The position numbers were made by a program, and so were the translations under genes. DNA of 63,742 nucleotides, the filler included, from Craspedostauros australis (Eukaryota), in NCBI GenBank assembly GCA_030167865.1. It is 9 parts of 9 records of this genome, joined end to end, with 100 filler letters (N's around TTAATTAATTAA, not from the genome) between each part and the next. Parts side by side here need not be neighbours in the genome. Positions count along the whole stretch, not along the records: positions 17,906 to 33,962 come from JALAGF010005323.1; 8 more parts are not named here. One strand, 5' to 3'. Every line of letters starts with the position of its first letter. The first letter of the stretch is position 1. The notes under the pieces were generated by a model that saw only the letters and a list, made by a program, of their open reading frames with translations, was not told where the DNA came from and ran no database searches. Of this stretch, positions 2,669-60,317 are shown in pieces.

Positions 2669-5081
2669 ATGCGATCATCGCATCGAGACGTTGCAGGCCG
2701 CGATCAACACACGGAGAGCGGCGGCAAGCGACGCGACGCTGGTCGATCGCTGGGAGGACGCGAGACGCGGCGCATCTTCAGGTGCCGTCTCTTCTTTGCT
2801 TTCCTATTCGTGGCATTGACGATCGGCACGGCGTCCACGGTGTTTCGCGTGACCAAGTCGGACGATGAAGATGACTTCCAACAACGGGTACGTATGTCGA
2901 AGTTGTGTGTCATTCCTTCCCCTTTGAACAATGCACGCCCACCATCCCACCAGGCTCCTCACTCGAATTCATTGTCCGTTGGTCATCGCTACTTACTGAA
3001 TGTTGTCGCGCACATTTGGACCTGAAAACTCGTACTCTGCCAACAAACAGTTCGAAGACATTGCCGACCAAGTGCTAATGACGTCGCAGATCAAAGCCAA
3101 GATGATCTTCCGATCAGTTGAAAGCTTGAGCCGGCGGATCAGCATCTACGCCAAGGCAAATGGGCAGGAGTGGCCGATGGTCATCGTTCCCAAGTTCGAA
3201 GCCGTGTTTGATCAACTGCGCCGGCAGACGGGGGCGACGGCCGTATCGATGGCTGTCACTGTGACGGAGCAATCCAAGGCGGCCTACGAGAACTTCCAGA
3301 TGCTCAACGGTCAGAAGTGGATCGCTGACACATACGAGTACCTTGGAATGGACGCGACTGGTAGTCCATTCATTCCACTGATCTACGCGCTTGATTTTAC
3401 CACGGGCAGCATCAGCTTCCAGCAGGGTCAGGGAGTGTACGCCCCCTTGGCGCAAACAGCTCCGCTGGCAGGATCGACGGGGTTCGTCAACTACGATCTG
3501 CTCTCCAACCCGCTCATCAAACTCGGCTACGACGTTGTCCATCTCTTCAACTCTTCCGTCCTGTCGCAGTTCATAAATCTCGGAAACGCAACCGACGATC
3601 CGGAGCAGTGGCCGCAGAGTTCGTTGATTGCCCCCATCTTCAAAGACGTGCCGAACAGCGCGAAGAACGTGGACGACAAAGCGGACAGCGTCAACATCGT
3701 GGCGCTCCTCATGCCCAACCTCCCGTGGCACATGCATTTTACGGATACCTTGCCGGTTGGCATCGACGCGGTGGATCTGGTGATTGAAAACACCTGCAAT
3801 CAGTCCTGCACCTTCCAGATCGAAGGTCCCGAAGTTTCTTACATTGGGCCTGGCGATCATCACGATCGTACATTCAGCCACCTCGTGCGATGGGCACCAT
3901 TTGCTCCATTCCAAAATCGCACGCAATGCAAGTACACATTCCACGTCTACCCAACCCAAGACTTCAAGGACGCGTACATGACCAACCACCCACGCGACAG
4001 CGTCATCGTTGTGGTGGCAGTCTTCGTCACTGCCGCCGTGTTCTTCGTCGTCTACGACAACCTGGTGGCGAGACGGCAACACAAGGTGCTGGACTCCGCT
4101 GCGAGATCCGGTGCCATCGTCAGCTCCCTGTTCCCGGACACTGTGCTGGATCGTGTCTTGAGCAGCGCAGAAGAAGTCGAGAACGAAAAGACCGTCAGCA
4201 ATCATGGCAACGCCCGCAAGTCGACCACAGGCTGGCGGCGCAAGTCGATGGACAAGGGTCCTCGTGCCGAAGAAACGCTGGATAAAACGCCGCAGAAGCA
4301 AACGCACCAGTCGTCAAACGATATCGAAGACACTGCTGGTCCGGAGACAGCGCCTACAGGAGCAGCAGCGCCAGCAACAAAGAGCACATCCCATGCGCAC
4401 ATATCCCAATCATCTCGGCTTGGCCACTCCCTGACGTCCCTTGCGAATGTCGGGCCATATATGATCGAGTCCAAATCAAGGCCCATTGCGGACTCATTCG
4501 AAAACGTCACCATCCTGTTCGCGAACATCTCAGGATTCAAGAAATGGTCCAGCACGCGAAGTCCGACGGACGTCTTCACCCTGTTGGAGACGTTGTACAC
4601 AGAATTCGACAAGCTCGCGGATGAAGTTGGGATTTTCAAGGTGGAGACCATCGGGGAATGCTACGTGGCGGCGTGCGGTTTGCCCGAGGAGCGCGATGAT
4701 CACGCCGTGTTGCTCTACCGGTTCTGCCGGCTGTGCGTACGACGTTCGCGCGGGCTGCTACTGGATCTGTCAACGCAGCTGGGGGGCAACACGCGGATAC
4801 TACGATTGCGATGCGGCATGCATTCCGGGTCGATCACCGCGGGCGTGCTGCGCGGAGCCAAGTCCAGGTTTCAGCTGTTCGGTGACACCATGAACACGGC
4901 GGCGCGGATGGAATCGTCAGGACTGCCGGGGAGGATACACCTGTCGGAGGCCACGGCGGATGAATTGATCCGCAAAGGGAAGGGAAAATGGCTTACGCCT
5001 CGAGAAGATGAGGTGGTGGCGAAGGGCAAGGGCAGGATGAAGACGTTCTGGGGGAGCGATGACATATCCTGCGAACTCTGA
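2669..5081 (+). CDS. Receptor-type class III adenylate/guanylate cyclase-like protein (TM - extracellular domain - TM - cyclase), 2 exons: 2669-2887 and 3051-5081, ~749 aa
   Basis: Cyclase motifs VTILFANISGF, FKVETIGECYVA, GMHSG, RFQLFGDTMNTAARMES, KGKG. Hydrophobic segments LFFAFLFVALTIGTASTVF and VIVVVAVFVTAAVFFVVY. A phase-0 intron GTACGT(2888)...AAACAG(3050) joins ORF 2669 to ORF 3000 in frame. Confidence 0.88.
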
Positions 5082-17805: not shown

Positions 17806-17905
17806 NNNNNNNNNNNNNNNNNNNNNNNNNNNNNNNNNNNNNNNNNNNNTTAATTAATTAANNNNNNNNNNNNNNNNNNNNNNNNNNNNNNNNNNNNNNN
17901 NNNNN
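17806..17905. other. Artificial scaffold linker N44-TTAATTAATTAA-N44 (linker cores also at 34007, 39922, 43999, 45813, 58055, 60261, 62546)
   Basis: The same six-frame-stop 12-mer sits in N runs eight times. Confidence 0.97.
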
Positions 17906-20900: not shown

Positions 20901-23900
20901 TGTGACGAATGTAGAAGAGTATGATACGAGATCGCTCAGCAAAAACGTGCGGTGCAAAAAAGGAAGAGTAAGCGAAAATCGAACCGAAGCAAAATCTTAT
21001 CGCAATTGTGTTTTCAGAGTGCCCACAATACATTGCTGCGGCAGAGCATACAAACTTCAAATACCGTCGATTGCATTCGCACCCCAACAACCAGCGTCGC
21101 AAACACACACTTCGAAATGGATTGGCAAACGCTACGCTTCTGAAACCAAAACACACGCGAAAATCAGGTCTGATCTGAACAACGTGGAATGAAGACGTCA
21201 ATTCGAACGTCTGTCCAACCACACGCAACTTTGGCGATGTCACGCACCACGGAACATGTGACATCACACGGTACTTAACGAAAACAAGCACGACGCCATC
21301 GCAGGCTCGACTCCGATTAACGTCCGTAACGTTCAAATGAGCACGAATGATTGTTCTCTACCAAGCTTCCCACCAAGCAAAACACAAAGAAAGCGAAAAT
21401 CAGATAGAAATGGGTTCCACGTGTCGTGACATGAGCCCCCACAATTCAAAGTCTGTCCGCTTGCACCGTATTTTGCCTCTAAAACAGTAAACTGCCACCC
21501 TCATAACTTTATAACTAAGGGCTGGACTCACCATTTACCACCTGCATCATGTTGCCAGAATGATAAAGTATTTAAATGTAGGTTTTGATTTTTATGAGGG
21601 GCCGTACAAGCTTGGGCCAAAATGCATTCTGGATGGACCGCACCGCTTTTCGCTCACACGGGTCATATGGCAGCGATGCGATGGGCCTCAACATGTCGCG
21701 AAACGGAAGCAGGGAGGAAGAAAAGAATGCAAACATGATACCGGAGACTGGCCCCGTACAGCACTCCATCACAATACGACTGCACGCCGTATAGAACCAC
21801 ATCGCTGTCGTCTGATAGCAAGCCAAGTACTAATAGCGATGCAATCTCCGAAGGAACAAACGATCACATCTTGCGCATAGGGTCCCCCAAAACATTGGAA
21901 ACCCCACCAACGCGACGGCAACACGCAAACCTCACGGTCGGAACCCTAGCAAAACTATCCGTCTGCGCGTGCGTACGCCTCTACCCCGTAGATGCCATCC
22001 GAGGTTTAAGCATCCATATCTTTGCAACCACCCCGATCTGGAAGCCCAGACTGACACCATAGTTAGTTTCTCACTTTATTCTATAGGGGTGGGTGGTTTA
22101 TACGCTAAAACGTCATTTAACGTCTTTAACGGCTCTCGATGGCTACTTATGGGTTTATCTGCATCAGGGTCATATAGGATTGGCATGCACTATATCTGCT
22201 TGTGCAATAGAACGCTGTGATGAAGTCACCAGATGTGTCAAGAGATTGAAGGGCTGGATACTGCTCCCACGCTGCCTCCACCTTGTCTACGACTACTCTG
22301 GTCCGCTCTCTACAGTACATACGCACACAGGGATGTTGCCGATGTCATTTATGAGCAGATTAGACGTCCGTGGTTCCATCCACGCTCCGCCATCAACATC
22401 GTTGTTGGTTCATTGCGCAGACAAAGGACGCAAGGCAGCACCATTTTCACAAGCCGTGCGGTCGTCACAGGGCGGTCGTCACCATGCCGCCGGATTCGCA
22501 CACATAGCACTCTACTCCAAGTCACACTGCCAAGCAGATGCAAAGCGACAGTGCCGATGCCAGCCGATCCAAGTTTCTGGAAGAGGCGATCTACGAAGAG
22601 CACATGGCGACCAAGGCAGAGGGAAATGATGGGAAGCCGCGAGGGGCATGGTTGTTGCACGGTTCCATCGACCGTCCTGTGTCGCGCTATCGACCTCATC
22701 TCTCCATGAGTTGCATTCCCACCATTGTGCCAAAACTGCAGTCAAGACCCTTACCAATCCCCAGGAGGAGTGATCACTCATTGTTGGAGTAACAAATGCA
22801 GGGGTCACCATCCATTCCAATCTTCGAAGCGACCAGTGCCAGTGTGGCGGAAACACAAGAACCGACGAGCTAGCGCAGTCCAAACATCCAGAGAGCTTGA
22901 CGAGCAAAAGAAGAAACCAACGAATCAACCAACCAACCAACGATCAACCCCATGCAGAGTGCGAGTGCCGTATTGCGGATCATGGTTGACACAGAGTTCC
23001 ATACAGCACAAGAATCATGCGGTCAGCAATCCATGGCCCATGCGCACAATATACCCACATGTCCTCCTTCGTGGTGCTCCCAACTTCGTTGATGAGGCGA
23101 ATGTTCCTGTCGATCGCCTCGGTTGAGCATCGATGCTCTGGAAGTCACGATCCAAGACAGTGGCGCTCATGCCTCTGGATAGAACTCGCACGGTATCGCA
23201 TGTTGGTGGTCCGTGCGGCAGGAACAGTGGAGGCGGCACAGTATCACTCAGCTTGTTGATTGCTGAACCTTTCAACCCATCCCAATACGCCATGTGATGT
23301 TGGTTGGATGTTGAGGACTCTTGTTGCCTGCGCGGATGATGGTGGTTGCAATGTGGTGGGATGGCAACCAGCCAAATCCAAATGAGGTGGGTTGCAACGA
23401 ACAAAGGCAGTCGCATCGGTGGCTTCATCGGTGGTTTCATCGCTGTTCAAGGCATTGGTTCACATCTCAAGTTGGTGCTTGCGATGGCAGGCGGACAAGG
23501 GTCAGCGGTCTTGCAGATGCCACGATGACGCAAGCAAGCGTGGGTCATGGTGTACATGGTGGTGGTGGTGGCAGCTCCCTCTGTCTCTCTGTATCTCTGT
23601 ATCTCTGCCTCCGAAGACTTCCACGTTGTTTGCTTCGAATTGAAGTGGCGTTGATTGTGACTGAAGTTGGGTTGTTGGAGGCAGCCCCAAACCACAACAC
23701 TGTTCAGACTGATGGAAACACTCAACGATCATTTCGAACCATTGGCGTGTCACCATCAACGATCTCTCGCATTCGTTGTGCTTCGACAGATGTCCAAACA
23801 ATCGTTGATCTTCTGCGATGTGTTGGTACAGCTGTCACGAAAGTGCCGACAGATGGCGCGGAACCACAGAAAGCCAATGACGTCAGTCGCAGGTGCAACA

Positions 23901-24607
23901 CAACGGCTGGCAGCCACCAGCACCAAGCCAGCAAACCACAACAAGACAGCAAACCACACCAAGACAGCAAAACAGACCAAAACAGCCGAACACAACACCC
24001 GGTCATAATTCCTGTTTAATTTATCTGGTTACAACCCCATCAACAACCGTACTGCTGTTCATCTGGATCGACCTTCGGCTCATCGCCGAGTAGCGACCGG
24101 TGACACAGCTCTTGCTTCAACACGATGATCTTACTCATAGTCGTATCAGTCGAAGATTCTCGTTTTCGACAATGCCACACAACAGAACCCTGTTGTTGTC
24201 AGAACCCTCTGTTGTCTTCCTTCTTGTTGTTGTTCTTGTAGTCGTAGAAGTACATACTCGTGATGGATGGGAACAGGAGGATCCAAGCCGCACGAACCAG
24301 AGAGGGGTGCGATCAAGAGAAGGAGGCAAACACGATGATGCTTGTGTGCAAAGAGAGAAAGAGAGGACATGTGCGAACAAGACAACAACACACACCACTC
24401 AACCCCATACTCGAGCACATCAACAACAGACATCGAATTGCCACTCATACTACTATTCATCACGCAGTGTATGACACACGTACTACTACAATCTATTGAA
24501 GACACACCATCGATATCTCTGCCAAAGGTATAATAGCTCAGACTGCACACTTCCTCGACAGCCAATCCAACGCCAATCATCCAGCAACCATTGACCATCC
24601 TCTCAAA

Positions 24608-26699
24608 ATGCCGAATGTTACGAACGACCAACTCCTTGATGCAGCCAAGACAGGTGACTTGTCGGTGTTGAAGGAATGGAAGGAGCAGAACAAGAAGACA
24701 CAAGTTGATGTCAACAAGGTTACAAACCGATTTGGTTACACTCCCCTTCATGTGGCATGCATGAACGGCCAGCTGGAGTGTGTGAGGTACCTCATCGAAT
24801 CATGTGGGGCGAACATCAACTGCGGAAACAGCGATGATTGGACTCCCCTTCATTGGGCATGCTACAACGGCCACCTGGAGTGTGTCAAGTACCTCATCCA
24901 ATCATGTGAGGCGAACATCAACTGCAAAGACGTCTATGGTCAGACTCCCCTTCATCTGGCATGCTACAACGGCCACCTGGAGTGTGTCAAGTACCTCATC
25001 CAATCATGTGAGGCGAACATCAACTGCAAAGACGACTATGGTCAGACTCCCCTTCATCTGGCATGCTACAACAACCACCTGGAGTGTGTCAAGTACCTCA
25101 TCCAATCATGTGAGGCGGACATCAACTGCAAAGACGACGATGGTCAGACTCCCCTTCATCTGGCATGCTACAGCGGCGAGCTGGAGTGTGTCAAGTACCT
25201 CATCGAATCATGTGAGGCGGACATCAACTGCAAAAACAACATTGGTTTCACTCCCCTTCATCGGGCATGCTACAACGGCCACCTGGAGTGTGCCAAGTAC
25301 CTCATCGAATCATGTGAGGCGGACATCAACTGCAAAACCAACAATGGTCAGACTCCCCTTCATCTGGCATGCTCCAACGGCCAGCTGGAGTGTGCCAAGT
25401 ACCTCATCGAATCATGTGAGGCGGACATCAACTGCAAAAACAACGATGGTCAGACTCCCCTTCATCTGGCATGCTCCAATGGCCACCTGGAGTGTGTGAA
25501 GTACCTCATCGAATCATGTGGGGCGAATGCCAACTGCCAAAACAACAATGGTTCCACTCCCCTTCATGCGGCATGCTACAACGGCTACCTGGAGTGTGTC
25601 ATGTACCTCATCGAATCAGGTGGGGCGAACATCAACTGCCAAAACAACCAAGGTGAAACTCCCCTTCGTTGGGCATGCATGCGTGGCGACCTGGAGTGTA
25701 TGGAGTCCCTCATCAGAGGACTTTCGCCTTCAGCTCACACACAACTGCAACAACTGCAGCAGCGCTTACAACAAAACGAACAAGCAAATGAACAGCCACA
25801 AGAACAGTTGGGACAACAGTTGAAGCGAAAGAAGCAAGAGAATGAACACAAACACAGCAGCAACAAGAGGACCAACATCAACATTGGAGAAGATCGGCCA
25901 TATCCTTCCAAACTGGGAACAGGACAGACACAATCTTCTTGTGTGGACAGGGCGACCGACAAGCAATCAAGGCAAACGTCGAAGCCCTTATGATCGCTGT
26001 CCCATCCATTGAGACACTGATGGACAAAGGAATCCAACATCACCACGCGAATGATGGCACCGAAGACTACGTGGCCCCATCCAAACAACCATCCCTCTTC
26101 CCAACCTCCAACCAAACCATGTCCGATACGTCCTCCAATGCATCTACACAGCCAAGATATCCTTTCATGACAACGTTCGTGAAAACACTGCTGCTCGCGT
26201 CGGCGCTCATATCGGCGCTCACCACGATACAGATGCCTCTCACCAGCCAACTCCCATCCTCACTGGACAGGATGATCTGCAACAGCTGATCCTTGTGGCC
26301 AACAAGTTCGGCTTCTGGCGACTCAAGCTTGTTCTTGAAGCAGAGTTGGCCCGCACTCATCTCACAGAGGACACCATGGTAGATGCGTTGATATTCGCCC
26401 ATCAATACAACTGCGTGGTGTTGAAGGATGCAGCAATGAGAATGGCAGCAGAGAGAGAGAAAGATATGTTCACTCATCCAGATTTAAGCAAGCTGATTCC
26501 ACACCATCAACTGATGGGAGGCATTCATGTCCTCTGCAGTGAAGGAGCGGAGAGTGATGGAGTTGATGATGAGTACAGCCAGATGTCCATGATGGAGCTG
26601 TACAAGGTCATAGATGAGGATGAGGGTACAGCACAAGTGGATTCATACATGGATCGGGCGACACTGGTGGACCTCGCCCGCTCTATGAGAACCAATTGA
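24608..26699 (+). pseudogene. Ankyrin-repeat + BTB/POZ (+BACK-like) protein, BTB part split by two apparent frameshifts
   Basis: Ten TPLHxAC ankyrin repeats, then a Q-rich linker. BTB-like pieces lie in successive frames: TDTIFLCG..IKANVEALMIAVPSIETLM (~25930), TIPLPNLQPNHVRYVLQCIYT (~26085), LQQLILVANKFGFWRLK..DALIFAHQYNCVVLKDAAM. Confidence 0.75.
24725..25720 (+). repeat. Tandem array of ~10 x 102-bp ankyrin-coding units with very high DNA identity
   Basis: ACTCCCCTTCAT..GGCATGC and CTGGAGTGT recur every 102 bp. Unit 1 starts at 24725 and unit 10 at 25643. Confidence 0.97.
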
Positions 26700-28207
26700 C
26701 CCGAAGTGATCGAGGTGGACGGCACTACCAAGGAAGAGAAGCGAAGTGGTTCACTCCAGCAACGGCGCTTGAGGAGCGAACGCATCATGCAGTAGAGTAG
26801 CGCAGATGACAGAATCTGAGCAATTAGATGTCAATTCGATATCAATCAGATATTCTTTACATTACTTCTCAAGAGAGCCTTCAGACTCGTATGTAGTGAG
26901 ACCTGTACGGACCTGTACGAGCAGTCGCGGCGCAATCATCATGCAAGGAGATGGCGAGGTATCAAGTCAATGCCGCATCGCACATGCCGAGTCATGGCTC
27001 AGTTCAACGCCAACGCTCCTGTTGAGTGAAAAAGACGAAAGTGGGTTTGCACGTGCCGAAGAGAGTGCCGCAAGCGGAACTACCACGACATCAAATAATC
27101 ACCCGATCATTGTGAAGTCCAGTTGCGCGGCGTTATTATGTGACGGAGAGACGAGATGGTTGTGAATATGAGTGTGAATGTGAGTGTGAATGTCGGTAGG
27201 CGAGGAGCATGGAATATGAGCGCGGTGGAGCCTCCACTGCATTCACACTCATACTACTATTCGTCGCCTTCACCATTGGTGTCTTGTGATACGCCAGTGT
27301 TTGTTCTGTTGTTCGGGCCAGCCATTGGGGCAGCGGATGGGCCAAATAACGAAGCAAGAACCATGCGCTTCGCCAATTGCGCTTTGGTCATGTTTGATGC
27401 GATCGCTTGCCGCCGGCGGAGTCCTTGAGGCTTGATGCGGTCCAACCACTTGGCTGGGTTGGCGGCTGCTCCGGCGTCCAACGCGATGCGGCTCGTGCCC
27501 AGTGCATTAGTGCGATGTGATGCTTCGCTGCCAAGCCGTTGCTTTCCACACCTCAGGACGAATTCACCGCAGAGTGAGAGTCTTGCTCAGCGCTCCAGCT
27601 TGACGACTTGGGGATTGGAATCATCGGACGAAAGATACGCGGAACCGAAGTCGAAGCCAAGAGATCGCGCGCATCTTGCACATGATGCATGGTCCGACCT
27701 CAGCTCTCTCGTCCATCACCTGCACTTGTCCGCGCAACGCGTGTGTCTGGCTTGTTCAGGTGGCGGGATTGAAGCAGCGAGGACCGCGCTCATCATCCCG
27801 GAGGCGTTTGTACCAATAGTCGTACGAGTAGAGGGAAGCGTGCTCGCACGAGTATCGTGGTGGTCGGAGACCATGGTACACATAGCATGCTGTGTTGTGC
27901 TGAGCGTGTCTCTTGGTTGTCGAACGTGAACCATCGAGTCACGAGTGATCTCAACAACAACAAAGAGAACTCGAGTTGGATTTTGAAACGATGTCAATGA
28001 CCCATGCCTCCTCCACCAGTCATTGGTGCAGATCCGTTGCTGTCCGCTTCGGATGCAGAACTGTCATGGATGGCCAGAGGAAGCGGCTGCCATGAATGAA
28101 AGAGATGCCTGACGAATCAACCATTATACTAAATGATGCATTCTATGCTCTACATGACAATATGTTACCTCGACTATGAAGACGCTTGCTCTGCTGCAAT
28201 GCTTGTT

Positions 28208-31200
28208 TCAGGCCAGACGCGAAGGCGGCATGTTCTCCGACTGAGCTGTTAGTTCAACATCCGTGATGCCATCCCCAACGCCCATCAACAGATGCTGGGG
28301 TCCGTGCTCCACAAACCGCGCAGCATCATCCAGGACAGGCTCCCTCACCGCTCCCATCACGCAGCATTTCTGGTGCAGCACACCGCTCACATACGAGCGC
28401 ACCAAGGTCAAGTGCGCAAACGTCTCGCGATGACCCGAGATGACGCACTCGTCAATGACGCATCCATCCGCGATGGTGATGTGCGTCGGCTCGTAGGCGC
28501 GGCAGGCGAAGTAGAGCAGGCGTCCCTCCACCTTGATACCCTGAAAGCGCAGGACGCCGTTCATCATGGGCGTTCCGGATAGCACCCAGGTGAACGACCA
28601 GACAGAGACTGACCAGCAGAACGACTGGTACACCATGTACAGAGCGAGGCACCACGGCGTCGTCCGCTTGTCGGTTCCAAGGAACGTGATGCATTCCAGG
28701 ATGCGCAGCAGCACGGTCCACACCGCGGACTGGACGATGATGCATGCCACGACGGCTGGAACTGCATCGGAGGGCGTCTGCGGCTTGATCAGTCTCATCC
28801 ATAGTTCGTAGGCTGGGATGAAGCTGCCTGCTACCACCACGAGCATGATGCCGTACAGCAGCGTATTCGTCGCCATGNNNNNNNNNNNNNNNNNNNNNNN
28901 NNNNNNNNNNNNNNNNNNNNNNNNNNNACCTTGATACCCTGAAAGCGCAGGACGCCGTTCATCATGGGCGTTCCGGATAGCACCCAGGTGAACGACCAGA
29001 CAGAGACTGACCAGCAGAACGACTGGTACACCATGTACAGAGCGAGGCACCACGGCGTCGTCCGCTTGTCGGTTCCAAGGAACGTGATGCATTCCAGGAT
29101 GCGCAGCAGCACGGTCCACACCGCGGACTGNACGATGATGCATGCCACGACGGCTGGAACTGCATCGGANGGCGTCTGCGGCTTGATCAGNCTCATCCAT
29201 AGTTCGTAGGCTGGGATGAAGCTGCCTGCTACCACCACGAGCATGATGCCGTACAGCAGCGTATTCGTCGCCATGAGCAGCACATGCTCACAAAGTGGCA
29301 AGGGCACGTTGCGCGGATGGCGCTCCGACCGCACTAGATTCTCCATGACGTGCGTTTGTGGTGGCACCACCGAGTTTCGGATCTCCACACCTGGTTCGGC
29401 AACGGTCATGATGCCGATGCTGCTGTCTTCGACGGTGATCTTGGCATACTCGTTGCCATCCTTCACGCACGGGTTGAAGACGGAGATGAAGGACCGTCTC
29501 ACGGAGACGAGGTCCACCTTGGACGGGAAGAATTTCTCTGCGAACACCTTGGATGTCAAATCAATGTCCATGCCAAGAGCCATAAGGATGAGATTCCAGA
29601 TGATGCAGTTGAACGTCAGTCCGTAGAGGATGAAGCACCCAAGCTTGAAGTGAAAGTCACATGCCCAGTCTGCAAACTGCGAAATGACGCTCGTGCTTGC
29701 TTTTCCGGGTCGCTTCTTCCCGATGAGCACCCATTTGAAGAGGATACTTGACACGATGAGGAACACATATGTAAGACCCAGCAATACGATCCAGTATTGC
29801 AACTTGGAGTATCGCCAGATTGGGAGCTCATCGCGGATAAGAATGTCGATGGTCAGAAAGCAAGTGAATGTAAGGTACAGCTCGATGAGCAGCCAGGAAG
29901 TCTTCATGGCGCCCAGCGCGATCCATTGGGAGTCGTTGTTCGGTCCTGCGGCATCCATGGTGCTGCTGTCCTCACTCTGCGGGTTGTCGGCATTGTTCTG
30001 CGGACCCGTCACAGGAACGTTGACATCGACGAACCCAGGATTCCCTTTGATCACAGTGTTGGGAGGTGCTTGGGCACCTTCGACCAGCACTGTGAGGTTG
30101 TGCACATGGCAGGAGGATCCAACCTTCGCGCCGGGGCACAGAGTGCCGTCGACCGTCGCATTGGCTCCGATTTGGATCTTGCGGAACCTCATGCTGGGGC
30201 CCAGCGCGTCGTCTTGCCAAGCGCCGAACATGCGGCATCGGATGGATTGGGTCACTTTGGCATGGGCGCCCATCGTCACGAGATCAAACTCTCGGATGAA
30301 TGAGTCGATACGCGATGATCGATGAACGTTTGCGCCCATGAGGTAGCAAAATACCGTCATCAGTGGCGTTCCCACAACGAAACGGCCAACGAAAATTTCC
30401 CACAAGTGCATCAGCCGATCGACGAACCACCATCGAAGGAAATAGATGCTCGTTTGGTGGATACGTCCCTCTCGATATCTGCCGATGACAATCCATTTTG
30501 CGAGAATGATCTCGATGGTGAGTGTGAGGGACCAGAATGGGATGACGAGTGGGTACCACACCCAAATGTACGGGGAGAAATCGATGAAGAAGAGCACATG
30601 GGTGCGGTTGTCGTTGACCAGCACCCTGCCGATCTCAAATGCAGGAATGATGGGCAACGCGAAGATGAATAGGACGGCAAGCGCGCCGATGGCCTGGATG
30701 AAAGCGATGGTCGGTTGTGACAGAGGCTTCTCGTTTCGTACTGTCTGGGTCCTTTTGAGCGTCGGGAGGTTGGTCGGAAGTGGCTGCCCGATGGATGCTT
30801 CGAGGTAGGTCTTGAGATCAAGAACCGACGGAAACATCTCGAAGCAGTTGGGGGGAATGACGGTGTTGTATCGCCGTGCGAGCGACTGCCAAAGCTCGAG
30901 CTCCATCATGGAGGAAAGTCCGACATCTTTCCATTTGTCTTCGGTCTTGACTTGTGACCCAGTGACATCCTTCACGATCTCGTTGAAGTCCATATGTTTG
31001 ATGTCGAGGTCTTGGATACAGGACTTTCGCAACGAAAGACGCTTCGATTGAGATGTCAGGTCGCCATCGCGTATGCTGAAGAAATTAGACATTCCGATCA
31101 CGTCCAGCACCATCTTCTGCGTTCCATCATGAAGGCGTTCGCGATTGCGTCTTCGTTGAATCTTCCCGCTCGTCGTCTTGGAGATGGTGCGCTCTTCCAC

Positions 31201-33177
31201 AGCCGCTACGGTTGCCGGTGTCAACCCAATCCCTCCCATTACAGCACGCTTGATCTCGTTGCAGACCGCTGCTGCTTCCTCGGCATGAGACGATCGAATC
31301 TCGAACACGATTTCCAACCGCCCATCGTTTCCCGAATCGTCGGACGAGAATGCCGCGACGCAACCTGGACGGACAGCGGGTGATGCATCTTCGACAGCAT
31401 GTTCAATGTCCTGTGGGTAGTAGTTGACGCCGTTGACGATGATGATGTCCTTCTTACGTCCACAGATATAGAGGTAGTCATCTTGGTAGAAACCGTAGTC
31501 ACCGGTACGGAGGTATGTTTTGGCTGGAGCGCCGCTGTTGTCGCTGCCGTTGCTGTTGCTCGTGTTTCCGTCTGTGCTGCTGCCGCTTAACGCTACGATG
31601 TCACCAGCCGTGTCGCCCTGCGACAACACTGCTTGGAATGTTTCCGAAGTGAGGCCAGGTTGGTTGTAGTAACCAGCTGCCACTGACGACCCTGCAATCC
31701 AAACCTCCCCTGTTGAATTGTCTGGCACTGGCTCCCGTGTCTCTGGGTGCACGATGATCACATCGATGGAGTGGTGCAGAGTGTCACGATGGGCGATGGC
31801 CACGAATGGATGGAGATCTTCGTCTTCACGGATGGATGACAGTTGGAATCCTTGCTGATGGCTCACGCCAACCACGTTCTCCGCCAGGCCGTATCCGGTC
31901 ATGAACCAGTCCTTGCGCAAGCCATATGGGCTGAATGCTGTGGAGAACAGTTCAGTCGTATCCAAGCGGATAGACTCTGCAGCGTTTTGGAAACGGAACA
32001 AGCTTGATAGATCGAGGTTGAGGATAGGATCCGAGCGATCGCCTCCTCGTGCCTTGGCCTCGTTGAACTTACGAGTAACCAGTCTGTAGCCAAAGTCGGG
32101 AGCAACCGTGAAATGGCACTTGTGCTTGGAGATGAGATCCATCCAAAGCAATGGATTGCGGATGAAGGAGACCGGTGACATCACGTGTGCACGGAAAGCG
32201 CCCGCCAATGGGACGATGGTCTGCTGGATCAAGCCCAGGTCGTGGTACTGCGGCAACCATGAAAATGTGGTGATGCGCTCGGGCAGCTTACTCATGTCAC
32301 CCAAATCATGTTCAAGGCATTCCAGCCAGCCAATGTGCAACATTTCAACGTTTGCTCTCAATGCATCGTGGGTGACCATCACACCCTTCGGGTTTCCCGT
32401 GCTTCCAGATGTGTACTGGAGGAAAGCAATGTCGGAACCTTCAATGATAGGTTCATCAAAGGATTGCATTGACGAAGAAGCCCGCGAACGACCAGAGATG
32501 GCACGGGACAGAAAGCTCCTGTGCAATCGTTTCGCACTGTTCTTGTGGCTGGCAAACGCATCATGGCGAATGATGCGATCGGTGACTTGAAACTTCACTC
32601 CGCTTGGCCACATGGCGCGGCTCTTCGATACTGGGTTGGCTCGATCGGCGGCACGGAACAGGTTGATGGTTGTCTGGGTGAGAATGAGGACTGGTGAGCA
32701 ATCCTCGACCACCTTGTTCATCTTGGCCAGTGACTTGACGAGTGGAGGTCCCGGAGGATAGACCAGCACGGCAGTCACGCCTGCGCGGAGACATCCCAGA
32801 AAGATGGCGAAGAAATGGAGTCCGAAGTCGTAGCAGAGAACGACGCGGTCGCCCTTGTTGACGCCCCACTTGTTGCGAAGGAGGTGGGCGCACTGTCCCG
32901 CTTCATCCCAGATCTGTTGGAAGGTGTAGTTATTGACTGGCTTTCCCTTCTCATCGTACCAAGTGGAGAAGACGAGGTCGGACTTGAGCTCGACGATGAA
33001 CTTGATGTGGTTGATGAAGGATTTGTTTTGGATGGACTTGTGGATGATCTCATGCTTGGTGGTGATGACGTTGGCCTTGGCGGTGCCAGCTTCGATGTCG
33101 TCGACAGAGACGACACTGTGCTGTGCTTGCACGGCCGTGGAGCTCTTCGGGTCCAAACAATGGGGTTTGTTATCCAT
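28208..33177 (-). CDS. NRPS-like membrane synthetase: fatty acyl-AMP ligase (FAAL) + carrier (ACP/PCP) domain + Pls/PosA-like C-terminal region with three TM-pair/beta-helix modules, ~1523 aa after removing an assembly duplication
   Basis: AFLQYTSGSTGNPKGV, SWLPQYHDLGLI, GYGLAEN, YLRTGD, GRKKDIIIVNGVNYYPQDIE, KTTSGKIQR. Carrier-like DVGLSSM at ~30910. KWIVIGRYREG/YFLRWWFVDRL/LMGANV, KWVLIGK/LGMDI and LSGTP/GIKV/ITIADGCVID..SGH mark the three modules. 28530-28877 duplicates 28928-29275 across a gap, and collapsing it gives one 4572-nt ORF. Confidence 0.88.
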
Positions 33178-33205
33178 GGTGGCGAAATTCTTTCTGTGGG
33201 AGGAA

Positions 33206-33222
33206 GGTTAGGGTTAGGGTTT
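33206..33222 (-). promoter_or_regulatory. Short telomere-like / telo-box motif (AAACCCTAACCCTAACC) ~30 bp upstream of the FAAL start
   Basis: Plus strand reads GGTTAGGGTTAGGGTTT. Function is only inferred from plant telo-boxes. Confidence 0.3.
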
Positions 33223-36196: not shown

Positions 36197-36877
36197 TACG
36201 TACCTTGCGTCCGGACGCAAATTGGAGGTGCAGTTTGCGTCCCCACGCAAATTGGGCCAATTTGCGTCCGGACGCAANNNNNNNNNNNNNNNNNNNGCCC
36301 AAATACGCTTTACGAGAAGCCGTTTTTTTTTCAAACCCTTTTTCGCTGGCCATCTCGACTCACGACATGACTCATGTCTTACATCGATAATAATCGCTGT
36401 GGTTGTGGTAATTGAACAAACAAAAATCATGATTCGTGCCCAACCCTCCTTGTTGTGTTGCACCGTTGCCAGGATTTTGGTGTTGTTGGCAGGATCGTGG
36501 TGGATGACATCGAAATCAAAAAGTAAAAGCTCATTACCTTAGATCCCATGACGTCAGAAAAGCAAGACAGGCGCACGGANNNNNNNNNNNNNNNNNNNNN
36601 NNNNNNNNNNNNNNNNNNNNNNNNNNNNNTTTTTTTTTGAAATCGCCAAATAAATGCGTTACTCGAAGGAGTCAGAAAAAAAAACAGCCCATTTTCGGGT
36701 TTCGGAGCGAAATGGGTTTTTTTTTCTGCAACACGGGACATCGTGGAGGAACATGGGACTTAAGTAGTACAAGTGGTATTTTCGGCGACCTTACATTTGC
36801 GTCCGGACGCAAATTGGCCCAATTTGCGTCCGGACGCAAACTGAGCGTTCAATTTGCGTCCGGACGCATGCTACGTA
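36197..36877. mobile_element. Non-autonomous MITE/foldback-like element with ~80-bp terminal inverted repeats made of palindromic TTTGCGTCCGGACGCAAA units, possible TA target duplication
   Basis: 36197-36277 is the near reverse complement of 36797-36877. Both ends carry TACGTA, consistent with TA|CGTA...TACG|TA. No credible internal ORF, and two internal gaps. Confidence 0.7.
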
Positions 36878-39877: not shown

Positions 39878-40121
39878 NNNNNNNNNNNNNNNNNNNNNNN
39901 NNNNNNNNNNNNNNNNNNNNNTTAATTAATTAANNNNNNNNNNNNNNNNNNNNNNNNNNNNNNNNNNNNNNNNNNNNAGTCAATAACCGTTCGCGCCATC
40001 TCTAGGGTATCTAATTTAGACATGTTCGCTTTCACTTCTCCCGAAGAGCGTCACATTTTGGCCAAGAGTGTGACAACACATCATCGGTTCCTTTTTTGTT
40101 GTTGCATGATGTGTTCCCTCC

Positions 40122-41441
40122 ATGCTATATGTCATGCTATACTCGCTGCTCCTTCAATTCGTCTGTGTTCATCGCACCTTCGCACACACAGCTCCTCTGC
40201 GCGTTCGATCACTACATACCATCGTTGTCATGGTCAATCGTAATTGGAGTACTGTTCCCGAGCGGCAGGCATTGGAAGAAGCCAGCGCTCGATTCGAGGC
40301 TGCCATCGCTCAGCTTGCAGACATCGACGTCCAACGTCTGGATTATGCAGGAGTCGTCATTTTGGTTCAGCACTATAGCAACATTGTTGCATTGGGCCGT
40401 CATGTGCTACAAATGCAGCAACTCTACCTCACTCCATTGGGACCTCCTCCCATGTTCACCAACAGGAACATTGCCATTGCGGAACTGGACGAACGCGAAA
40501 GTGTTCGTCACTTTCGTTTCCGTGTGCGTGATCTTCAACGTCTGGCTGACCGTCTCTGGCCCAAGTTTCAGGCAGTGTCCGGTGAGGCAGATCCTGCATG
40601 CATTCAAGTGAAGAGTCGATACACGGTATCATACGAAATGGGATTGCTTGTCATGTTGTTCCGTCTGGCACATCGCGGACGGCTGTGTGACATGGAACAG
40701 AGATTCAGCATGGACAGCAACCGCATTTCCAGTATTGCCTCCACTTTCTACTCCTACTTCTATGCCGTTGGCATGCCCTACCTGAGCGACATCGGTTTGT
40801 TTCATACTCGATTCCCCGACTATGCGGAGAACAATCACCGTCTCACCCACGGCTTGGTGGACGATGTGTTCGCTTACGTCGACGGCACGTTTTGGGAAAC
40901 CTGTCGTCCCTCAGAGAATCAAGAGGACCTCTACTCTGGCTATAAACGCGGTCATGGGCTGCACTATCAAGGAATCGTTGCGCCAGATGGGTTGCTCATT
41001 CACTACTTTGGGCCGATTGCAGGTGCTCGCAGTGACGGGTACATGTTCCAGCAAAGCAAAATCGAACAGCGACTGGAGGCTCTCATGCCGTTGGATGAGA
41101 ACAATCCTCCATATCGTCTCTACGGTGATGCAGCATATCCTANNNNNNNNNNNNNNNNNNNNNNNNNNNNNNNNNNNNNNNNNNNNNNNNNNNNNNNNNN
41201 NNNNNNNNNNNNNNNGTCGGGACGCATCTGTGTTGAGTGGGCATTCAAGGAGATCACGAAGAATTTCCCCCTCGTCAGCGTTCGCAACGCCAACAAAACG
41301 CTACAGAATCCTCTCACACTCATTCATTTTGTTGCTGCGTTCCTCGCCAACATCCATTGCACCATGAATGGCAATCAGCAGTCTGCACGGTACCAATCGC
41401 ACAAGCTGACATTCGAAGAATACATCGACCTGATCCCATGA
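40122..41441 (+). CDS. PIF/Harbinger (HARBI1-like) DDE transposase, start uncertain, internal gap
   Basis: FAYVDGT, YSGYKRGHGLHYQGIVAPDG, GARSD, LYGDAAYP, RICVEWAF, plus an HTH-like region LLVMLFRLA..LCDMEQRF. Confidence 0.9.
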   Translation: MLYVMLYSLLLQFVCVHRTFAHTAPLRVRSLHTIVVMVNRNWSTVPERQALEEASARFEAAIAQLADIDVQRLDYAGVVILVQHYSNIVALGRHVLQMQQLYLTPLGPPPMFTNRNIAIAELDERESVRHFRFRVRDLQRLADRLWPKFQAVSGEADPACIQVKSRYTVSYEMGLLVMLFRLAHRGRLCDMEQRFSMDSNRISSIASTFYSYFYAVGMPYLSDIGLFHTRFPDYAENNHRLTHGLVDDVFAYVDGTFWETCRPSENQEDLYSGYKRGHGLHYQGIVAPDGLLIHYFGPIAGARSDGYMFQQSKIEQRLEALMPLDENNPPYRLYGDAAYPXXXXXXXXXXXXXXXXXXXXXXXXXSGRICVEWAFKEITKNFPLVSVRNANKTLQNPLTLIHFVAAFLANIHCTMNGNQQSARYQSHKLTFEEYIDLIP

Positions 41442-41871
41442 TCATGCAAACAGTTAGAATTAATGAGGTACATATACATGTAATACGTATTGGACTAACT
41501 ATTATGTAGTACTCATGGCGCGCGGGCACTTGTGTTGTGTGTGCTGTGCTGCGTACAATGAGCAAATGCTGGGGAATGGTTTTCTGATGGAATGGGTGTG
41601 GACGCGGAAGGAAGCATGCGGCTGTGCGCACAAGGGCTTCAGCGCGTCGGCTTCTCCACTTGGTTTTGCTCTGTATGCTGCTGTGGGGTGCTTGTGCCAT
41701 GAAGAGAGGAACGAATGAATGGATGCATGCATGCATTGAAGAATGGATCGTTGAGTTGGATCGACGAATGTAACGACAAATGGGTGGGTTGATGTGGTAC
41801 GGAATGTGAGGGATTGCGGGAAAGAAGGTATGAAATGTGGAAATACGCAGAGAGGAAAGAATGGGTGAGTA

Positions 41872-43416
41872 TCATTTTCCCGCGTCGTCGTCGTCGTCGC
41901 CGTCGCCGTTGCGGCTGCTGCTGCTGTTCTCGTTGTCGTTGTTGTGTTGAGCTTTGGACATGACGTGGACGAGAGACCTGACGTCGGACGAGAGTTTCAT
42001 TTGTGACTCGCGCAACTGCGAGGTCTCGTGCTGCACCCGGTTCCTATCCTCCTCCAGACGGCGGTTCATGTGGAGTATCAGTTGCTGCTGATTCATCACG
42101 AGCTGGAGGAGGTTGTTGTTGTTGTTGGTGGTGGTGGTGTTGACATCGTTGGAAGCCGCTGCCCCCACAGTTGGAGCGATTGGAGAAGCGGCGAGCGATG
42201 ATGCAATCGGAGAATTTTCTCCGCGTTCCACGCGAATCGGAGGCGTGGCCGTAGCGAGCCATGCTTGAAACTGACGCTGAGTTTCGTCCAGCTTCTCCAG
42301 GAGACTGACTGTGCACTGGAGCTGCTGCTTGGCGTTTCGTGCTTGCTTCGGAGCAGTCACCACTTCCGCAGAAGACAAACTCGAGGTCGCGTCGTCGCTG
42401 TTGCTCGCCACCACATTCTGTTGCCGCGCCGTTGCTGCTGCTCTGCGCACAGCCACATTCTGTTTCCGCGCCGTTGCTGCTGCTCCAGCTTGTGTCTGCG
42501 TTTGAGGAGGGCGCAGTCCTAGCATGCGATGCTGCTGCCTTGCAGTGATCCTCTTGCGCCCAGCGATTCTTGTTTGCGATGCGATGGCATCATCAATGTA
42601 CTCCTGACGCTCCTGCTGCAGGGCAGTGAGGTCGTCCAGCCACAATTTGACACTCTCAGCCATGNCGCTCCTGCGAGGATGGGTGTGGTTGTACAGACCT
42701 GTGTACTTCATGAGATTTTCGAATCTCCCCTTCAGCCCTTTCTCTTGTGGGACAGTGGGGAAGACTGTCGAATTCTCAACATGCACCGCGTTGCGGATCG
42801 CACTCCATGCAACTCCAATTGGCGGTATCCAAGGCTTTTTGAGAGTCCTGCTGACGACGTCGATGAGGATTCGGTCGCATGGCTGGGGGTTCACGAGCCA
42901 TGGGAAGTGGTCCACCTTCCCCTTGAGAATGTAGTACATGGGAGGGAAGAATCTTGGTCTGGATTTGCGGACGATGGGAGGGGTTGGCATGTTGCCATCA
43001 CTGGCTGTCGCCACCGCAGATGATACGGAAGGTGCAGGCGCCTTCTTGCGACGGTACGCCCGCTTCTTGTTGTTCCTGCTGCTGCTGTTGCTGTTGCTTG
43101 GTGGCAATGGTTCCGCCGGAGGCTGATGGGTGACAGATGGCGAAGCGCGAGGCTTGCCAGACTTGGCCATCGCGTCGACGTCGTCGCCGTTGCTCGCGTC
43201 GAAGGGAGCACCAACGTTGGCTTGAGGCTGCGCCAGTGTGAACCTGTAAGTGCAGCGTTCGAAACCAGGTGGGAGTTTCTCATCCTTGCCCAACACTGAT
43301 GGTGGGAAGACGAAGGTCGCCGGTGCGCCAGTCCTTCCACTCGGCGTGACCTCGCTGTCGCTGCTGGTCTCCGACGGAGCAATGGGCGGAGCCGCGGGAG
43401 GAGGGGAACCGTCCAT
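41872..43416 (-). CDS. Harbinger ORF2-like accessory protein (possible Myb/SANT-like DNA-binding region, coiled coils)
   Basis: Long ORF convergent with the transposase. AWSAIRNAV...GLKGRFENLMKY resembles a trihelix/Myb-like motif. NLS-like KKRAYRRKK. Confidence 0.6.
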   Translation of the reverse strand: MDGSPPPAAPPIAPSETSSDSEVTPSGRTGAPATFVFPPSVLGKDEKLPPGFERCTYRFTLAQPQANVGAPFDASNGDDVDAMAKSGKPRASPSVTHQPPAEPLPPSNSNSSSRNNKKRAYRRKKAPAPSVSSAVATASDGNMPTPPIVRKSRPRFFPPMYYILKGKVDHFPWLVNPQPCDRILIDVVSRTLKKPWIPPIGVAWSAIRNAVHVENSTVFPTVPQEKGLKGRFENLMKYTGLYNHTHPRRSXMAESVKLWLDDLTALQQERQEYIDDAIASQTRIAGRKRITARQQHRMLGLRPPQTQTQAGAAATARKQNVAVRRAAATARQQNVVASNSDDATSSLSSAEVVTAPKQARNAKQQLQCTVSLLEKLDETQRQFQAWLATATPPIRVERGENSPIASSLAASPIAPTVGAAASNDVNTTTTNNNNNLLQLVMNQQQLILHMNRRLEEDRNRVQHETSQLRESQMKLSSDVRSLVHVMSKAQHNNDNENSSSSRNGDGDDDDDAGK

Positions 43417-43794
43417 GACGAATAGAGGGAAGAGACTATGCGTCAGAAACGACACGTGTTGTGGTCTGTGGCAGTGATCAGAATGTCTCGTGCAAGATGT
43501 TGGTCGAAGTGGAGCATCGAGGTGTGATCATGAGGTGGGTTGTGACAGATGATTGTCTTGGAATGAGAGAATCGAGATGAGAGAATCGAGCGATGGCGAT
43601 GTGATGGTGATGTGATGGCGATGTGATGGATGATGTTTTTCTCTTTGTTGTTCCAAAACGAACGCAAAAGTCTACGATGGCGGCCAATGTAGACAGATGT
43701 GGAGGACAAGAAGGACTAAACTAGAACGAAATAACACAACATGATTGGCCAAAGTCTATTATCCATGTGGAAGTGATACATTTTCCGGGACTCT

Positions 43795-51129: not shown

Positions 51130-52215
51130 TCACAAGTCGTCACATGATCGATGGTCCAAGTAGTCATTGATGACACCCTCGAGTAGTTGCTGGTCTTCCA
51201 AAGGCAACCCAGCCGCCAGCCGGATCTTTCGCATTCGTAACTTCTTTGTGTGCAAATGCAGAGAGCAGCTTTTTACATTCGAGTGTTTGCCGTGATGCAG
51301 CGTAAGACTTGCTCGGACCAGCTGGTTGGTGCTGCCTTCCATGAAGCTAATCCTCTTGCCGAAATACTTCCGTGTCAAAGACCACGTGTGCTTACCGATC
51401 GTGATGTGGGTCGATACGAAGGGATTGACAAACATGAATTGGCCCATGAAGCCGCTATACACCGCTAGAACGAGGGGACGCGAAATCGGTCCCACCACAG
51501 CAAACCGCCCCGCGTGCAAGTATACACCAATCAGCATCGAACGCACTACCTTTCCTCTTGGCGGAATGTCCAGTACCAGCGTCCCAGCGTTTGTGAAACG
51601 AATGTCCGAGATGGATCTGGTCATTTTGACACGTTCGATGGTCGACCCGTGAGTCTCTGGAGTTTGTGGATGCACCGTCTCGGCGTGCGGTACGTACGGT
51701 GCAGCATCATCGTCTGATTCTCCCTTAGGCTTCAACAGCCCCCATCCTGCAAGTTCATCACGAACCGCGGGATCGGGAGACATCGGATGAAGATCTTCCC
51801 GCGAGAATAACGGAGCCGGAGAATACGTGGAGGCAAAAGGCTCGCTCCGAAGATGGTCTCGTCTTTCTTCCTGCGTGGGAAGTTGCCATGAAGGCTGGAT
51901 GTCACCAAAAGTGCTGCTGCTCTCGTCATCGTAGTCACAGTCGATAGCGTTGTTGATGTTGTGAATTTCATCAACAGTGATACTGTTGTCCTCACCAGAG
52001 CGTTCACCAAAGAAATCGTAAGCCGCCATTTCATCCTTCTCTCTTTTGAGAGCGAAACGGGAGCTGTTGCCGCCGCCACTGCGACGCACACGATCGAGAC
52101 GATGCCATGTCACCCGCTGTCGCCCAAATCTGTCACGGAGAGGTGACAGAGGCGAGAAGGCCACGGTGGAATGCAGCACAGCGGCGGTCGAAGTCAGCAC
52201 AACTGTGACTCTCAT
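51130..52215 (-). CDS. Putative plastid-targeted membrane-associated hypothetical protein, paralog 1 (361 aa)
   Basis: Signal peptide MRVTVVLTSTAAVLHSTVA-FSP (ASAFAP-like), Arg-rich transit-like segment, C-terminal GTLVLDIPPRG...VNPFVSTHITIG.HTWSL domain. Confidence 0.72.
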   Translation of the reverse strand: MRVTVVLTSTAAVLHSTVAFSPLSPLRDRFGRQRVTWHRLDRVRRSGGGNSSRFALKREKDEMAAYDFFGERSGEDNSITVDEIHNINNAIDCDYDDESSSTFGDIQPSWQLPTQEERRDHLRSEPFASTYSPAPLFSREDLHPMSPDPAVRDELAGWGLLKPKGESDDDAAPYVPHAETVHPQTPETHGSTIERVKMTRSISDIRFTNAGTLVLDIPPRGKVVRSMLIGVYLHAGRFAVVGPISRPLVLAVYSGFMGQFMFVNPFVSTHITIGKHTWSLTRKYFGKRISFMEGSTNQLVRASLTLHHGKHSNVKSCSLHLHTKKLRMRKIRLAAGLPLEDQQLLEGVINDYLDHRSCDDL

Positions 52216-52669
52216 CTTGATCGTTCCTTTTGGCAGTTTCGCACGAGCTCTCTCTCTCTCTCTCTGCCCGAATACAGCTGATTGCAACTGACTATGACCA
52301 CACAGCCTCCTTCGGTACAACCACACCCGTGAAATGACAACACAGAATGCAAGAACACAGCCAACAAAGCCACACAAAGAGGCTTCTTGACCCCTGGAGC
52401 ACGGGAAAATCCCAGTTGAGGTCGTATCGATGCGATCGGTTCATTTCGGAACTTCCACGACACAAACCGAAAAGGCGAAGACAGAATTCGCACGAAATCG
52501 TATCTTGGACAAATCGGACTACTCCAAATTCATTTTTCCTCCTTTTGCATCGTTAGCTGTTGCTGCGAATGATGTGGAGGAAGGAGATTGTATGAGGGGT
52601 GCTTGTCATCGCTGGTACTAATTGGACCGAACTTCGCCTCCCGCCTCCATTTACCATGATGATGATGCT

Positions 52670-57991: not shown

Positions 57992-58110
57992 CTCAACATG
58001 ATCGCTCTAGNNNNNNNNNNNNNNNNNNNNNNNNNNNNNNNNNNNNNNNNNNNNTTAATTAATTAANNNNNNNNNNNNNNNNNNNNNNNNNNNNNNNNNN
58101 NNNNNNNNNN

Positions 58111-60216: not shown

Positions 60217-60317
60217 NNNNNNNNNNNNNNNNNNNNNNNNNNNNNNNNNNNNNNNNNNNNTTAATTAATTAANNNNNNNNNNNNNNNNNNNNNNNNNNNN
60301 NNNNNNNNNNNNNNNNA

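What the first reader, a model, noticed from the sequence alone, without database searches (positions are those of the whole stretch)
24725..25720. Natural DARPin-like array: near-identical 102-bp ankyrin repeats varying mainly at binding-surface codons, fused to BTB
Seen: framework codons (ACT CCC CTT CAT, GCA TGC, CTG GAG TGT, TAC CTC ATC, AAC TGC) are nearly invariant, including silent sites. Differences cluster at the beta-turn (NRF/NSD/DVY/DDY/DDD/NNI/TNN/NND/NNN/NNQ), the residue before TPLH (Y,W,Q,F,S,E), the residue after it (V,W,L,R,A) and the end of helix 1. Established: these largely match the positions randomised in DARPins. High internal repeat identity with hypervariable surface sites is the signature of fungal NLR/HET sensor repeats. 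BTB proteins are Cullin-3 substrate adaptors. Inference: a rapidly re-shuffled recognition module that sends targets (viral or parasite proteins?) to ubiquitination, i.e. a candidate innate-immune receptor family in an alga.
Basis: partly seen in the sequence, partly recalled or inferred. Interest (0 to 1): 0.72.

Follow-up and report, generated by a model that had tools for sequence, protein, structure and literature searches.

The report
Fast-evolving diatom ankyrin binder family
A diatom carries over a hundred related genes that build protein-gripping surfaces from shuffled, fast-changing ankyrin repeats, many joined to a part that normally tags proteins for destruction; this copy has lost that part, and the family looks like a repertoire for recognising foreign proteins, though its targets are unknown.

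Summary
The array is real: ten 102-bp ankyrin units with a framework invariant even at silent sites. It is not fused to BTB here: the ORF (24608-25993, 461 aa) stops before it; the BTB lies behind two frameshifts shared with 13 and 4 other copies. The gene belongs to a large family: 123 distinct arrays of 3-60 units fetched, partly in ~7.7-kb tandem units. Subfamily A keeps an in-frame BTB-BACK (40 of 46) that folds like SPOP and is related to MATH-BTB proteins. The window's subfamily B has broken it (48 of 49) while 68 of 69 arrays stay open. Unit positions 3, 5, 10, 13, 16 show dN>dS in both subfamilies separately; units are duplicated and recombined between genes. Best reading: a diversifying binder repertoire, Cullin-3 adaptors plus BTB-less binders, in an arms race with unknown proteins. 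Immune role, Cullin-3 binding and expression of this copy are not shown. No earlier scan note on this family; no paper found. New variant of a known kind.

The parts
22183..24607 (+). Upstream part of the ~7.7-kb tandem duplication unit that carries many copies of the gene; the window's match to other copies begins sharply at 22183
   Evidence: 84-88% matches in at least 39 other places (40 of 110 candidates scored); common boundary at 22183-22189 in seven contigs, unit repeat on C6721
24608..24724 (+). Start codon and N-terminal capping repeat (two helices)
   Evidence: ORF; helices 6-15 and 18-27 in the model; same head in most paralogs
24725..25714 (+). Array of ten 34-codon ankyrin units; unit positions 3, 5, 10, 13, 16 hypervariable and under diversifying selection in the family; last unit ends after helix 2
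   Evidence: (10 Ank stretches)
25715..25898 (+). Gln-rich helical linker (likely coiled coil) with a KRKK basic motif (possible nuclear signal, inferred); subfamily-B junction
   Evidence: helices 374-393 and 397-413, pLDDT 50-70; basic motif kept in 49 of 69 B ORFs
25899..25993 (+). First -1 frameshift (~25899) and out-of-frame run to the stop TGA 25991-25993 that ends the 461-aa protein
   Evidence: alignment to intact copies; same local sequence in 14 copies
25900..26078 (+). N-terminal half of the BTB domain, in a second frame, ending at the second -1 frameshift (~26070-26078)
   Evidence: second frameshift context in 5 copies
26079..26699 (+). C-terminal half of BTB, BACK-like helices and a final two-helix element, in a third frame; not joined to the ankyrin ORF
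   Evidence: Pfam BTB 19.8 bits (cut-off 20.5), weak BACK; intact paralog passes BTB at 26.3 bits and folds like SPOP BTB-BACK

Best explanation
A lineage-specific repertoire of intracellular binders. Step 1 (shown by homology): ankyrin repeats sit where MATH sits in diatom MATH-BTB-BACK (SPOP-like) proteins; older paralogs with divergent repeats remain. Step 2 (shown): one branch has homogenised 102-bp units and spread by tandem and segmental duplication. Step 3 (shown): units are duplicated, lost and recombined within and between genes, and selection favours amino-acid change at five codons of the beta-turn and first helix, so each gene shows a different binding surface on a fixed frame. Step 4 (inferred from SPOP biology): copies with intact BTB-BACK dimerise, bind Cullin-3 and send what the array grips for ubiquitination. 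Step 5 (inferred): the window's subfamily dropped the BTB repeatedly but keeps the array, giving free ankyrin binders that block or sequester targets, or tune the full-length adaptors. Step 6 (inferred): the targets are fast-changing non-self or selfish proteins (virus, parasite, transposon).
For: dN>dS at unit positions 3, 5, 10, 13, 16 after Bonferroni in 266 A units and, separately, 324 B units; 4-5 framework positions under purifying selection in each. Close unit pairs: 166 non-synonymous vs 11 synonymous changes at six positions fixed beforehand (ratio 2.9, p 1e-4), 257 vs 93 elsewhere (0.84). 18-20 residues seen at positions 3, 5, 10, 13; 528 different five-site combinations in 590 units. 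Nearest unit in the same array for 32% against 1.8% expected; 37 A-B unit pairs within 5 nt; block insertions and chimeric units in L008/L037 and L153/L155. B arrays: 1 stop in 46,485 bp; B tails: 91 stops, 26 alleles, 16 private, in 50,560 bp (p 3e-4). BTB model pLDDT 88, best match SPOP BTB 4j8z, E 6e-8. MATH-BTB relatives. A Cullin-3 gene is in the genome. Same regime described for fungal NLR ankyrins (PMC4986451).
Against: No target, infection data or strain polymorphism. Close-pair excess is not significant in subfamily A alone (1.4-1.8, p 0.2-0.6) and fell from 7.9 to 2.3-4.1 with more data. Pooled piN/piS at the six positions is 0.86 when multi-step codons take the most synonymous path. 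Position 10 loses significance on a framework-only tree. Codon tests are my own grid implementation on trees that ignore recombination. Framework ratios of 0.55-0.9 show weak constraint. Private changes in the B head give 1.04 (7 synonymous, 24 non-synonymous), no sign of constraint. The BTB relaxation in B against A is not significant (0.91 vs 0.60, p 0.18). BTB/POZ families in Seminavis robusta respond to sexual reproduction (PMC7335047).
Confidence: 0.55

Rival explanations
1. Subfamily B, this copy included, is a set of dying genes that serves as a donor pool: arrays stay open only because unit-level gene conversion from working genes overwrites damage, and the working products are the BTB-fused A proteins.
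For: 48 of 49 B tails broken; head singletons near neutral; about a dozen B ORFs already end inside the linker; units are exchanged between A and B; copies ride in a duplicated unit.
Against: Start codon and head are in frame in all B copies whose 5' end was fetched except L050; B shows the clearer purifying signal in the framework (0.55, p 9e-4) and the clearer diversifying signal; 90% of B units have their nearest outside neighbour in B, so A is not their main template.
Confidence: 0.22
2. The family acts in sex or genetic conflict inside the species (mate or gamete recognition, self/non-self between clones, antidote to a selfish element) rather than against pathogens.
For: BTB/POZ families are reproduction-responsive and diversified in Seminavis robusta (PMC7335047 passages); fungal arrays of this kind act in allorecognition (PMC4986451). 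The same sequence signature is expected.
Against: No signal peptide or membrane segment is evident in the sequences (read directly, no predictor run); over a hundred loci with many specificities fits many external targets better than one partner (inference).
Confidence: 0.15
3. Neutral or nearly neutral expansion: a repeat-prone duplication unit spread, concerted evolution froze the framework, and surface positions vary only because they tolerate change.
For: Tandem 7.7-kb units; modest framework constraint; surface positions of any ankyrin are tolerant (established).
Against: Tolerance gives dN/dS up to 1, not 4-40-fold excess at the same five codons in two subfamilies; synonymous diversity at those codons is close to the framework's (0.14 vs 0.10); the convex face is not hypervariable.
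Confidence: 0.08

Closest known systems
Fungal NLR ankyrin arrays with high internal conservation (Podospora Pa_3_8560, Pa_2_8180; Dyrka et al. 2014, PMC4986451, abstract, passages and section 17 read)
   Same: Internally conserved ankyrin repeats, variable repeat number, about five positively selected positions on the inner helix and beta-hairpin, concerted evolution.
   Different: No NACHT or NB-ARC domain or death effector here; the array is N-terminal and the output is a BTB-BACK module or nothing; diatom host; over a hundred paralogs of one repeat type.
SPOP/BPM MATH-BTB Cullin-3 adaptors and the unstable F-box and MATH-BTB families of nematodes and plants (Thomas 2006: not held; known from passages of PMC8665587, and recall)
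   Same: SPOP-like BTB-BACK fold; lineage-specific birth-and-death expansion; selection on the substrate-binding part; foreign-protein degradation proposed.
   Different: The substrate module is a recombining tandem array, not a single MATH or FBA domain; a large subfamily has lost the cullin-binding part but keeps the binder.
Brown-algal ROCO LRR candidate immune receptors (PMC11378527, abstract and outline seen)
   Same: Stramenopile repeat proteins with shuffled units and diversifying selection, proposed as immune receptors.
   Different: There each repeat is an exon, shuffled and alternatively spliced, joined to a ROC-COR GTPase; here the array is one intron-free ORF with a ubiquitin-ligase adaptor.
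DARPins (PMC8229355, passages seen)
   Same: Fixed consensus ankyrin frame with a varied concave surface; DARPins lead the fold matches of the window protein.
   Different: Natural, 34- not 33-residue units, 3-60 units, variation also at positions 10 and 16.
Other ankyrin plus BTB proteins: plant NPR1, animal ABTB1, ABTB2, BTBD11 (recalled; NPR1 is a weaker fold hit)
   Same: Both domains in one chain.
   Different: Single-copy or small conserved families with divergent repeats; NPR1 has the reverse order; no sign of kinship beyond the domains.

Membership tests
Ankyrin repeat protein | TPLH helix-turn-helix repeats stacking into a solenoid | tested here: met
   10 Pfam Ank stretches; model and fold matches
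Fungal-type NLR (STAND) | Central NACHT or NB-ARC domain | tested here: not met
   No such Pfam hit in the window protein or in 4 fused family proteins scanned
High-internal-conservation repeat arrays (Dyrka 2014) | At least 85% internal identity over 100 aa | tested here: inconclusive
   Identity to own consensus 84% for the window; medians 81-82%; 23 of 88 arrays reach 85%; my measure is not T-reks
High-internal-conservation repeat arrays (Dyrka 2014) | Positive selection at concave-face positions | tested here: met
   Positions 3, 5, 10, 13, 16 in both subfamilies; placement on the face follows the standard ankyrin register, not a surface calculation
High-internal-conservation repeat arrays (Dyrka 2014) | Repeat-number polymorphism between strains at one locus | not testable with these tools
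   One genome only; close copies differ (13 vs 20 units at 97.5% tail identity) but alleles and paralogs cannot be told apart
SPOP-type Cullin-3 adaptor (family, subfamily A) | BTB followed by BACK-like helices in frame with a substrate-binding domain | tested here: met
   40 of 46 A copies fused; Pfam BTB over cut-off; SPOP fold
SPOP-type Cullin-3 adaptor (window gene) | BTB in the same reading frame as the substrate-binding domain | tested here: not met
   Two frameshifts, stop at 25993
SPOP-type Cullin-3 adaptor | Physical binding to Cullin-3 and ubiquitination of a substrate | not testable with these tools
   Needs biochemistry
MATH-BTB | MATH domain | tested here: not met
   MATH found in relatives P0015, P0017, P0021 but not in the family protein L116
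Diversity-generating retroelement target | Variation confined to adenines | tested here: not met
   Silent adenines are stable (GCA in 551, TCA in 528 of 590 units) and non-A bases vary at positions 5, 10, 13

The most novel reading that the evidence does not exclude
A two-tier intracellular recognition system in a diatom: BTB-fused degraders and free, BTB-less natural DARPins draw on one shared pool of repeat units that is recombined between loci, perhaps during clonal growth, giving a unicellular alga an antibody-like repertoire coupled to Cullin-3 against viruses or parasites.
Probability: 0.2. Interest if true: 0.88.

Novelty: new variant of a known kind. Interest (0 to 1): 0.62.

Why it matters
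Little is known of how diatoms recognise viruses and parasites. This family joins two strategies known from separate kingdoms, recombining hypervariable repeat sensors (fungal NLRs) and expanded cullin adaptors (nematodes, plants), in one gene family, in a diatom that can be grown and, by my recall, transformed. It gives concrete baits for finding targets, and a natural library of several hundred ankyrin modules that shows which positions evolution varies, including two that the classic DARPin design keeps fixed.

Tried and rejected
Complex prediction of an intact BTB-BACK (L116) with the N-terminal part of a Cullin-3 from another diatom (P0103, 66-75% identical there): no verdict, score 0.00, alignments not used; no evidence either way. 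Sequencing runs: no RNA holder listed; one run X1, guessed to be RNA, holds 0.23 of the words. Its contigs cover 27 of 30 bins, mostly as paralog-like pieces; none of the 15 joints shown (of 20) has GT..AG ends, and the only exact pieces among 8 shown lie at 26847-27200; it cannot show expression of this copy. Splicing as a rescue of the fusion: 11 GT..AG pairs would open the frame, none with a consensus-like donor, and all remove sequence that intact paralogs translate as BTB; unlikely, not excluded. My first sample (67 copies, chosen by likeness to the window and by a linker 11-mer; 37 of those 80 regions held no array) suggested the BTB was dead family-wide (2 of 48 fused); a search with P0001 showed this was sampling bias. 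Linkage decay inside units: r2 0.044 at 1-6 nt to about 0.01 beyond 15 nt, permutation p 0.24, not significant. DGR-type mutagenesis rejected. No telomere-like triple repeat in the fetched loci. Earlier scan notes: none on this genome, one unrelated note. Six literature searches found no description of this family (listings only); subscription papers and supplements were not seen, and a genome paper may list it.

Full report
Observation. The window holds a tandem array at 24733-25714, period 102, 9.6 copies, 88% matches, no indels. In register from 24725 there are ten 34-codon ankyrin units; 10 codons are identical in all ten, silent sites included, and 16 of 34 in the eight internal units, which are 88% alike in DNA and 75% in protein. 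The array lies in one ORF, ATG 24608 to TGA 25993, 461 aa, with 10 Pfam ankyrin stretches and no BTB. A single-sequence model gives a cap, ten helix pairs, two further helices and a disordered end (mean pLDDT 73); DARPins and ankyrins lead the fold matches.

The BTB is not in frame. Its N-terminal half is in a second frame and its C-terminal half, with BACK-like helices, in a third. Alignment to intact paralogs places single-base losses near 25899 and 26070-26078. The exact local sequences occur in 14 and 5 fetched copies, the window included, and only the window has both: they are inherited alleles, and the window's tail is a mosaic. Splicing is an unlikely rescue.

Family. Searches of the own genome gave 314 first-look candidates for the gene (40 scored), 201 for the BTB end (40 scored) and 136 hits of a linker 11-mer against 31 for its control. 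From loci L001-L166 I recovered 135 arrays, 123 distinct: 7 older paralogs with divergent repeats (43-72% internal identity), 47 of type A and 69 of type B, told apart by the junction after the array. The sample was picked by similarity, so the A:B ratio is not a genome ratio, and some copies may be alleles. Unit number runs from 3 to 60. Of copies whose fetched tail reaches the BTB core, 40 of 46 A, 1 of 49 B and 7 of 7 old copies read through in frame. 122 of 123 arrays are open; two are interrupted at the 5' end. A tree of the tails puts intact A copies at the base and most B copies, with the window, in a recent crown mixed with a few A copies. Many crown copies sit in a tandem unit of about 7.7 kb, about 85% alike; the window shares it from 22183 to about 26750.

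Origin. Searches with an intact BTB region found close relatives only in this family: 1 of 628, 2 of 196 candidates and 18 proteins at E 1e-10 or better among 1.84 billion representatives. P0001, P0004 and P0005 are encoded letter for letter in G000, and UniRef names P0003, P0004, P0006 and P0012 as Craspedostauros australis, so the host is most likely that raphid diatom. Several older paralogs carry transcript-derived names. The next relatives are MATH-BTB proteins (3 of 4 scanned). An intact BTB region folds with pLDDT 88 and matches SPOP BTB-BACK best (4j8z, E 6e-8, TM 0.81 on the target). The genome has a Cullin-3 gene whose N-terminal exons are 66-75% identical to another diatom's. I found no ankyrin-BTB gene of this kind in other species, but the word-based searches are weak for long proteins.

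Selection. On 271 distinct units, nearly all B, a codon model with separate synonymous and non-synonymous rates per site gave dN>dS at positions 1, 3, 5, 10, 13, 16, 34, more weakly 25 and 31; on a framework-only tree position 10 was not significant. Repeated on 266 A and 324 B units separately, positions 3, 5, 10, 13, 16 passed Bonferroni in both, with purifying selection at 7, 12, 23, 24, 29 (A) and 4, 22, 24, 29 (B). Positions 2 and 14 vary but do not pass. Among disjoint close pairs, the six DARPin-randomised positions (numbering recalled) carried 41 non-synonymous and 1 synonymous change in 39 pairs; in the larger set 166 and 11 in 123 pairs (ratio 2.9, p 1e-4) against 257 and 93 elsewhere (0.84); A alone was not significant. 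A deliberately conservative pooled ratio was 0.86. Synonymous diversity at the hypervariable codons is near the framework's (0.14 vs 0.10), which argues against mutation hot spots. These tests ignore recombination, which can inflate them.

Reshuffling. The nearest unit lies in the same array for 32% of 606 units (1.8% expected); 20 of 45 pairs within 2 nt are in one array; 37 A-B pairs lie within 5 nt. L008 and L037 (97.5% alike in the tail) have 13 and 20 units with inserted blocks; L153 and L155 differ by half-unit swaps; L144 repeats a three-unit block also found in L115. Short-read misassembly could make some of these, but not the family-wide pattern.

What the window gene is. B arrays carry 1 stop in 46,485 bp, B tails 91 stops of 26 kinds in 50,560 bp, most often just before or at the start of the BTB. 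B arrays also show the clearer selection. So the array is kept and the adaptor is dropped, repeatedly. Against function: head singletons look neutral on small counts, some ORFs end inside the linker, and expression of this copy is not shown.

Mechanism. Shown: architecture, expansion, reshuffling, site-specific selection, loss of BTB in B. From established SPOP biology: intact copies should act as Cullin-3 substrate adaptors. Inferred: B proteins are free binders that block targets or compete with the adaptors, and the targets are fast-changing foreign or selfish proteins (0.55 overall). Rivals: donor pool of dying genes (0.22), sex or intra-species conflict (0.15), neutral expansion (0.08).

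Comparison. It evolves like fungal NLR ankyrin arrays (PMC4986451; abstract, passages, section 17) but is no NLR. It resembles the unstable cullin-adaptor families of nematodes (PMC8665587 passages; Thomas 2006 not held) but uses a recombining array. Brown-algal ROCO genes are the nearest stramenopile parallel (PMC11378527 abstract). Seminavis BTB families respond to reproduction (PMC7335047 passages); Bathycoccus ankyrin expansions were linked to cold (PMC11409870 passages); DARPin surface placement is from PMC8229355 passages. Six searches showed no paper on this family (listings only; subscription papers and supplements not seen).

Verdict. Observation partly confirmed, interpretation supported for the family and not for this copy. 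New variant of a known kind; interest 0.62.

Noticed in passing
L115:1426-8757 (G000 C3870): One intact family member has 60 ankyrin units and an in-frame BTB, 2444 aa, with units repeated at intervals such as 2/12/32 and 3/21/47.
   Followed up: partly
window 28208-33207, minus strand: Large fatty acyl-AMP ligase-like gene with a carrier domain and hydrophobic C-terminal part. About 350 bases are duplicated on both sides of the N gap at 28878-28927, probably an assembly overlap.
   Followed up: partly
window 17806-17905: N gap holding a short palindromic all-frame-stop spacer; the window changes contig here (C5318 to C5323), so neighbourhood across it is not secure.
   Followed up: no
window 40110-43527: DDE_Tnp_4 transposase facing a second ORF of about 550 aa; looks like a PIF/Harbinger element (recalled).
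   Followed up: partly
window 58063-62549: Fragmented LTR retrotransposon with a GAG-pre-integrase domain, with internal duplications across gaps.
   Followed up: partly
window 36205-36277 and 36795-36868: Two short arrays of a 27-bp unit with a palindromic core, about 500 bases apart; possibly ends of a small mobile element.
   Followed up: no
window 51130-52440 and 54962-56233, minus strand: Two diverged tandem copies of an unknown gene with a hydrophobic N-terminus.
   Followed up: no
L172:5067-7181 (G000 C6721): The 7.7-kb unit also carries a long Ser/Arg-rich ORF in pieces, duplicated with the ankyrin gene; function unknown.
   Followed up: no
window 3000-5081: Receptor-type adenylate/guanylate cyclase; ordinary for diatoms.
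   Followed up: partly
window 26850-27950: The downstream flank is itself multi-copy (45 matches), often next to family genes.
   Followed up: partly
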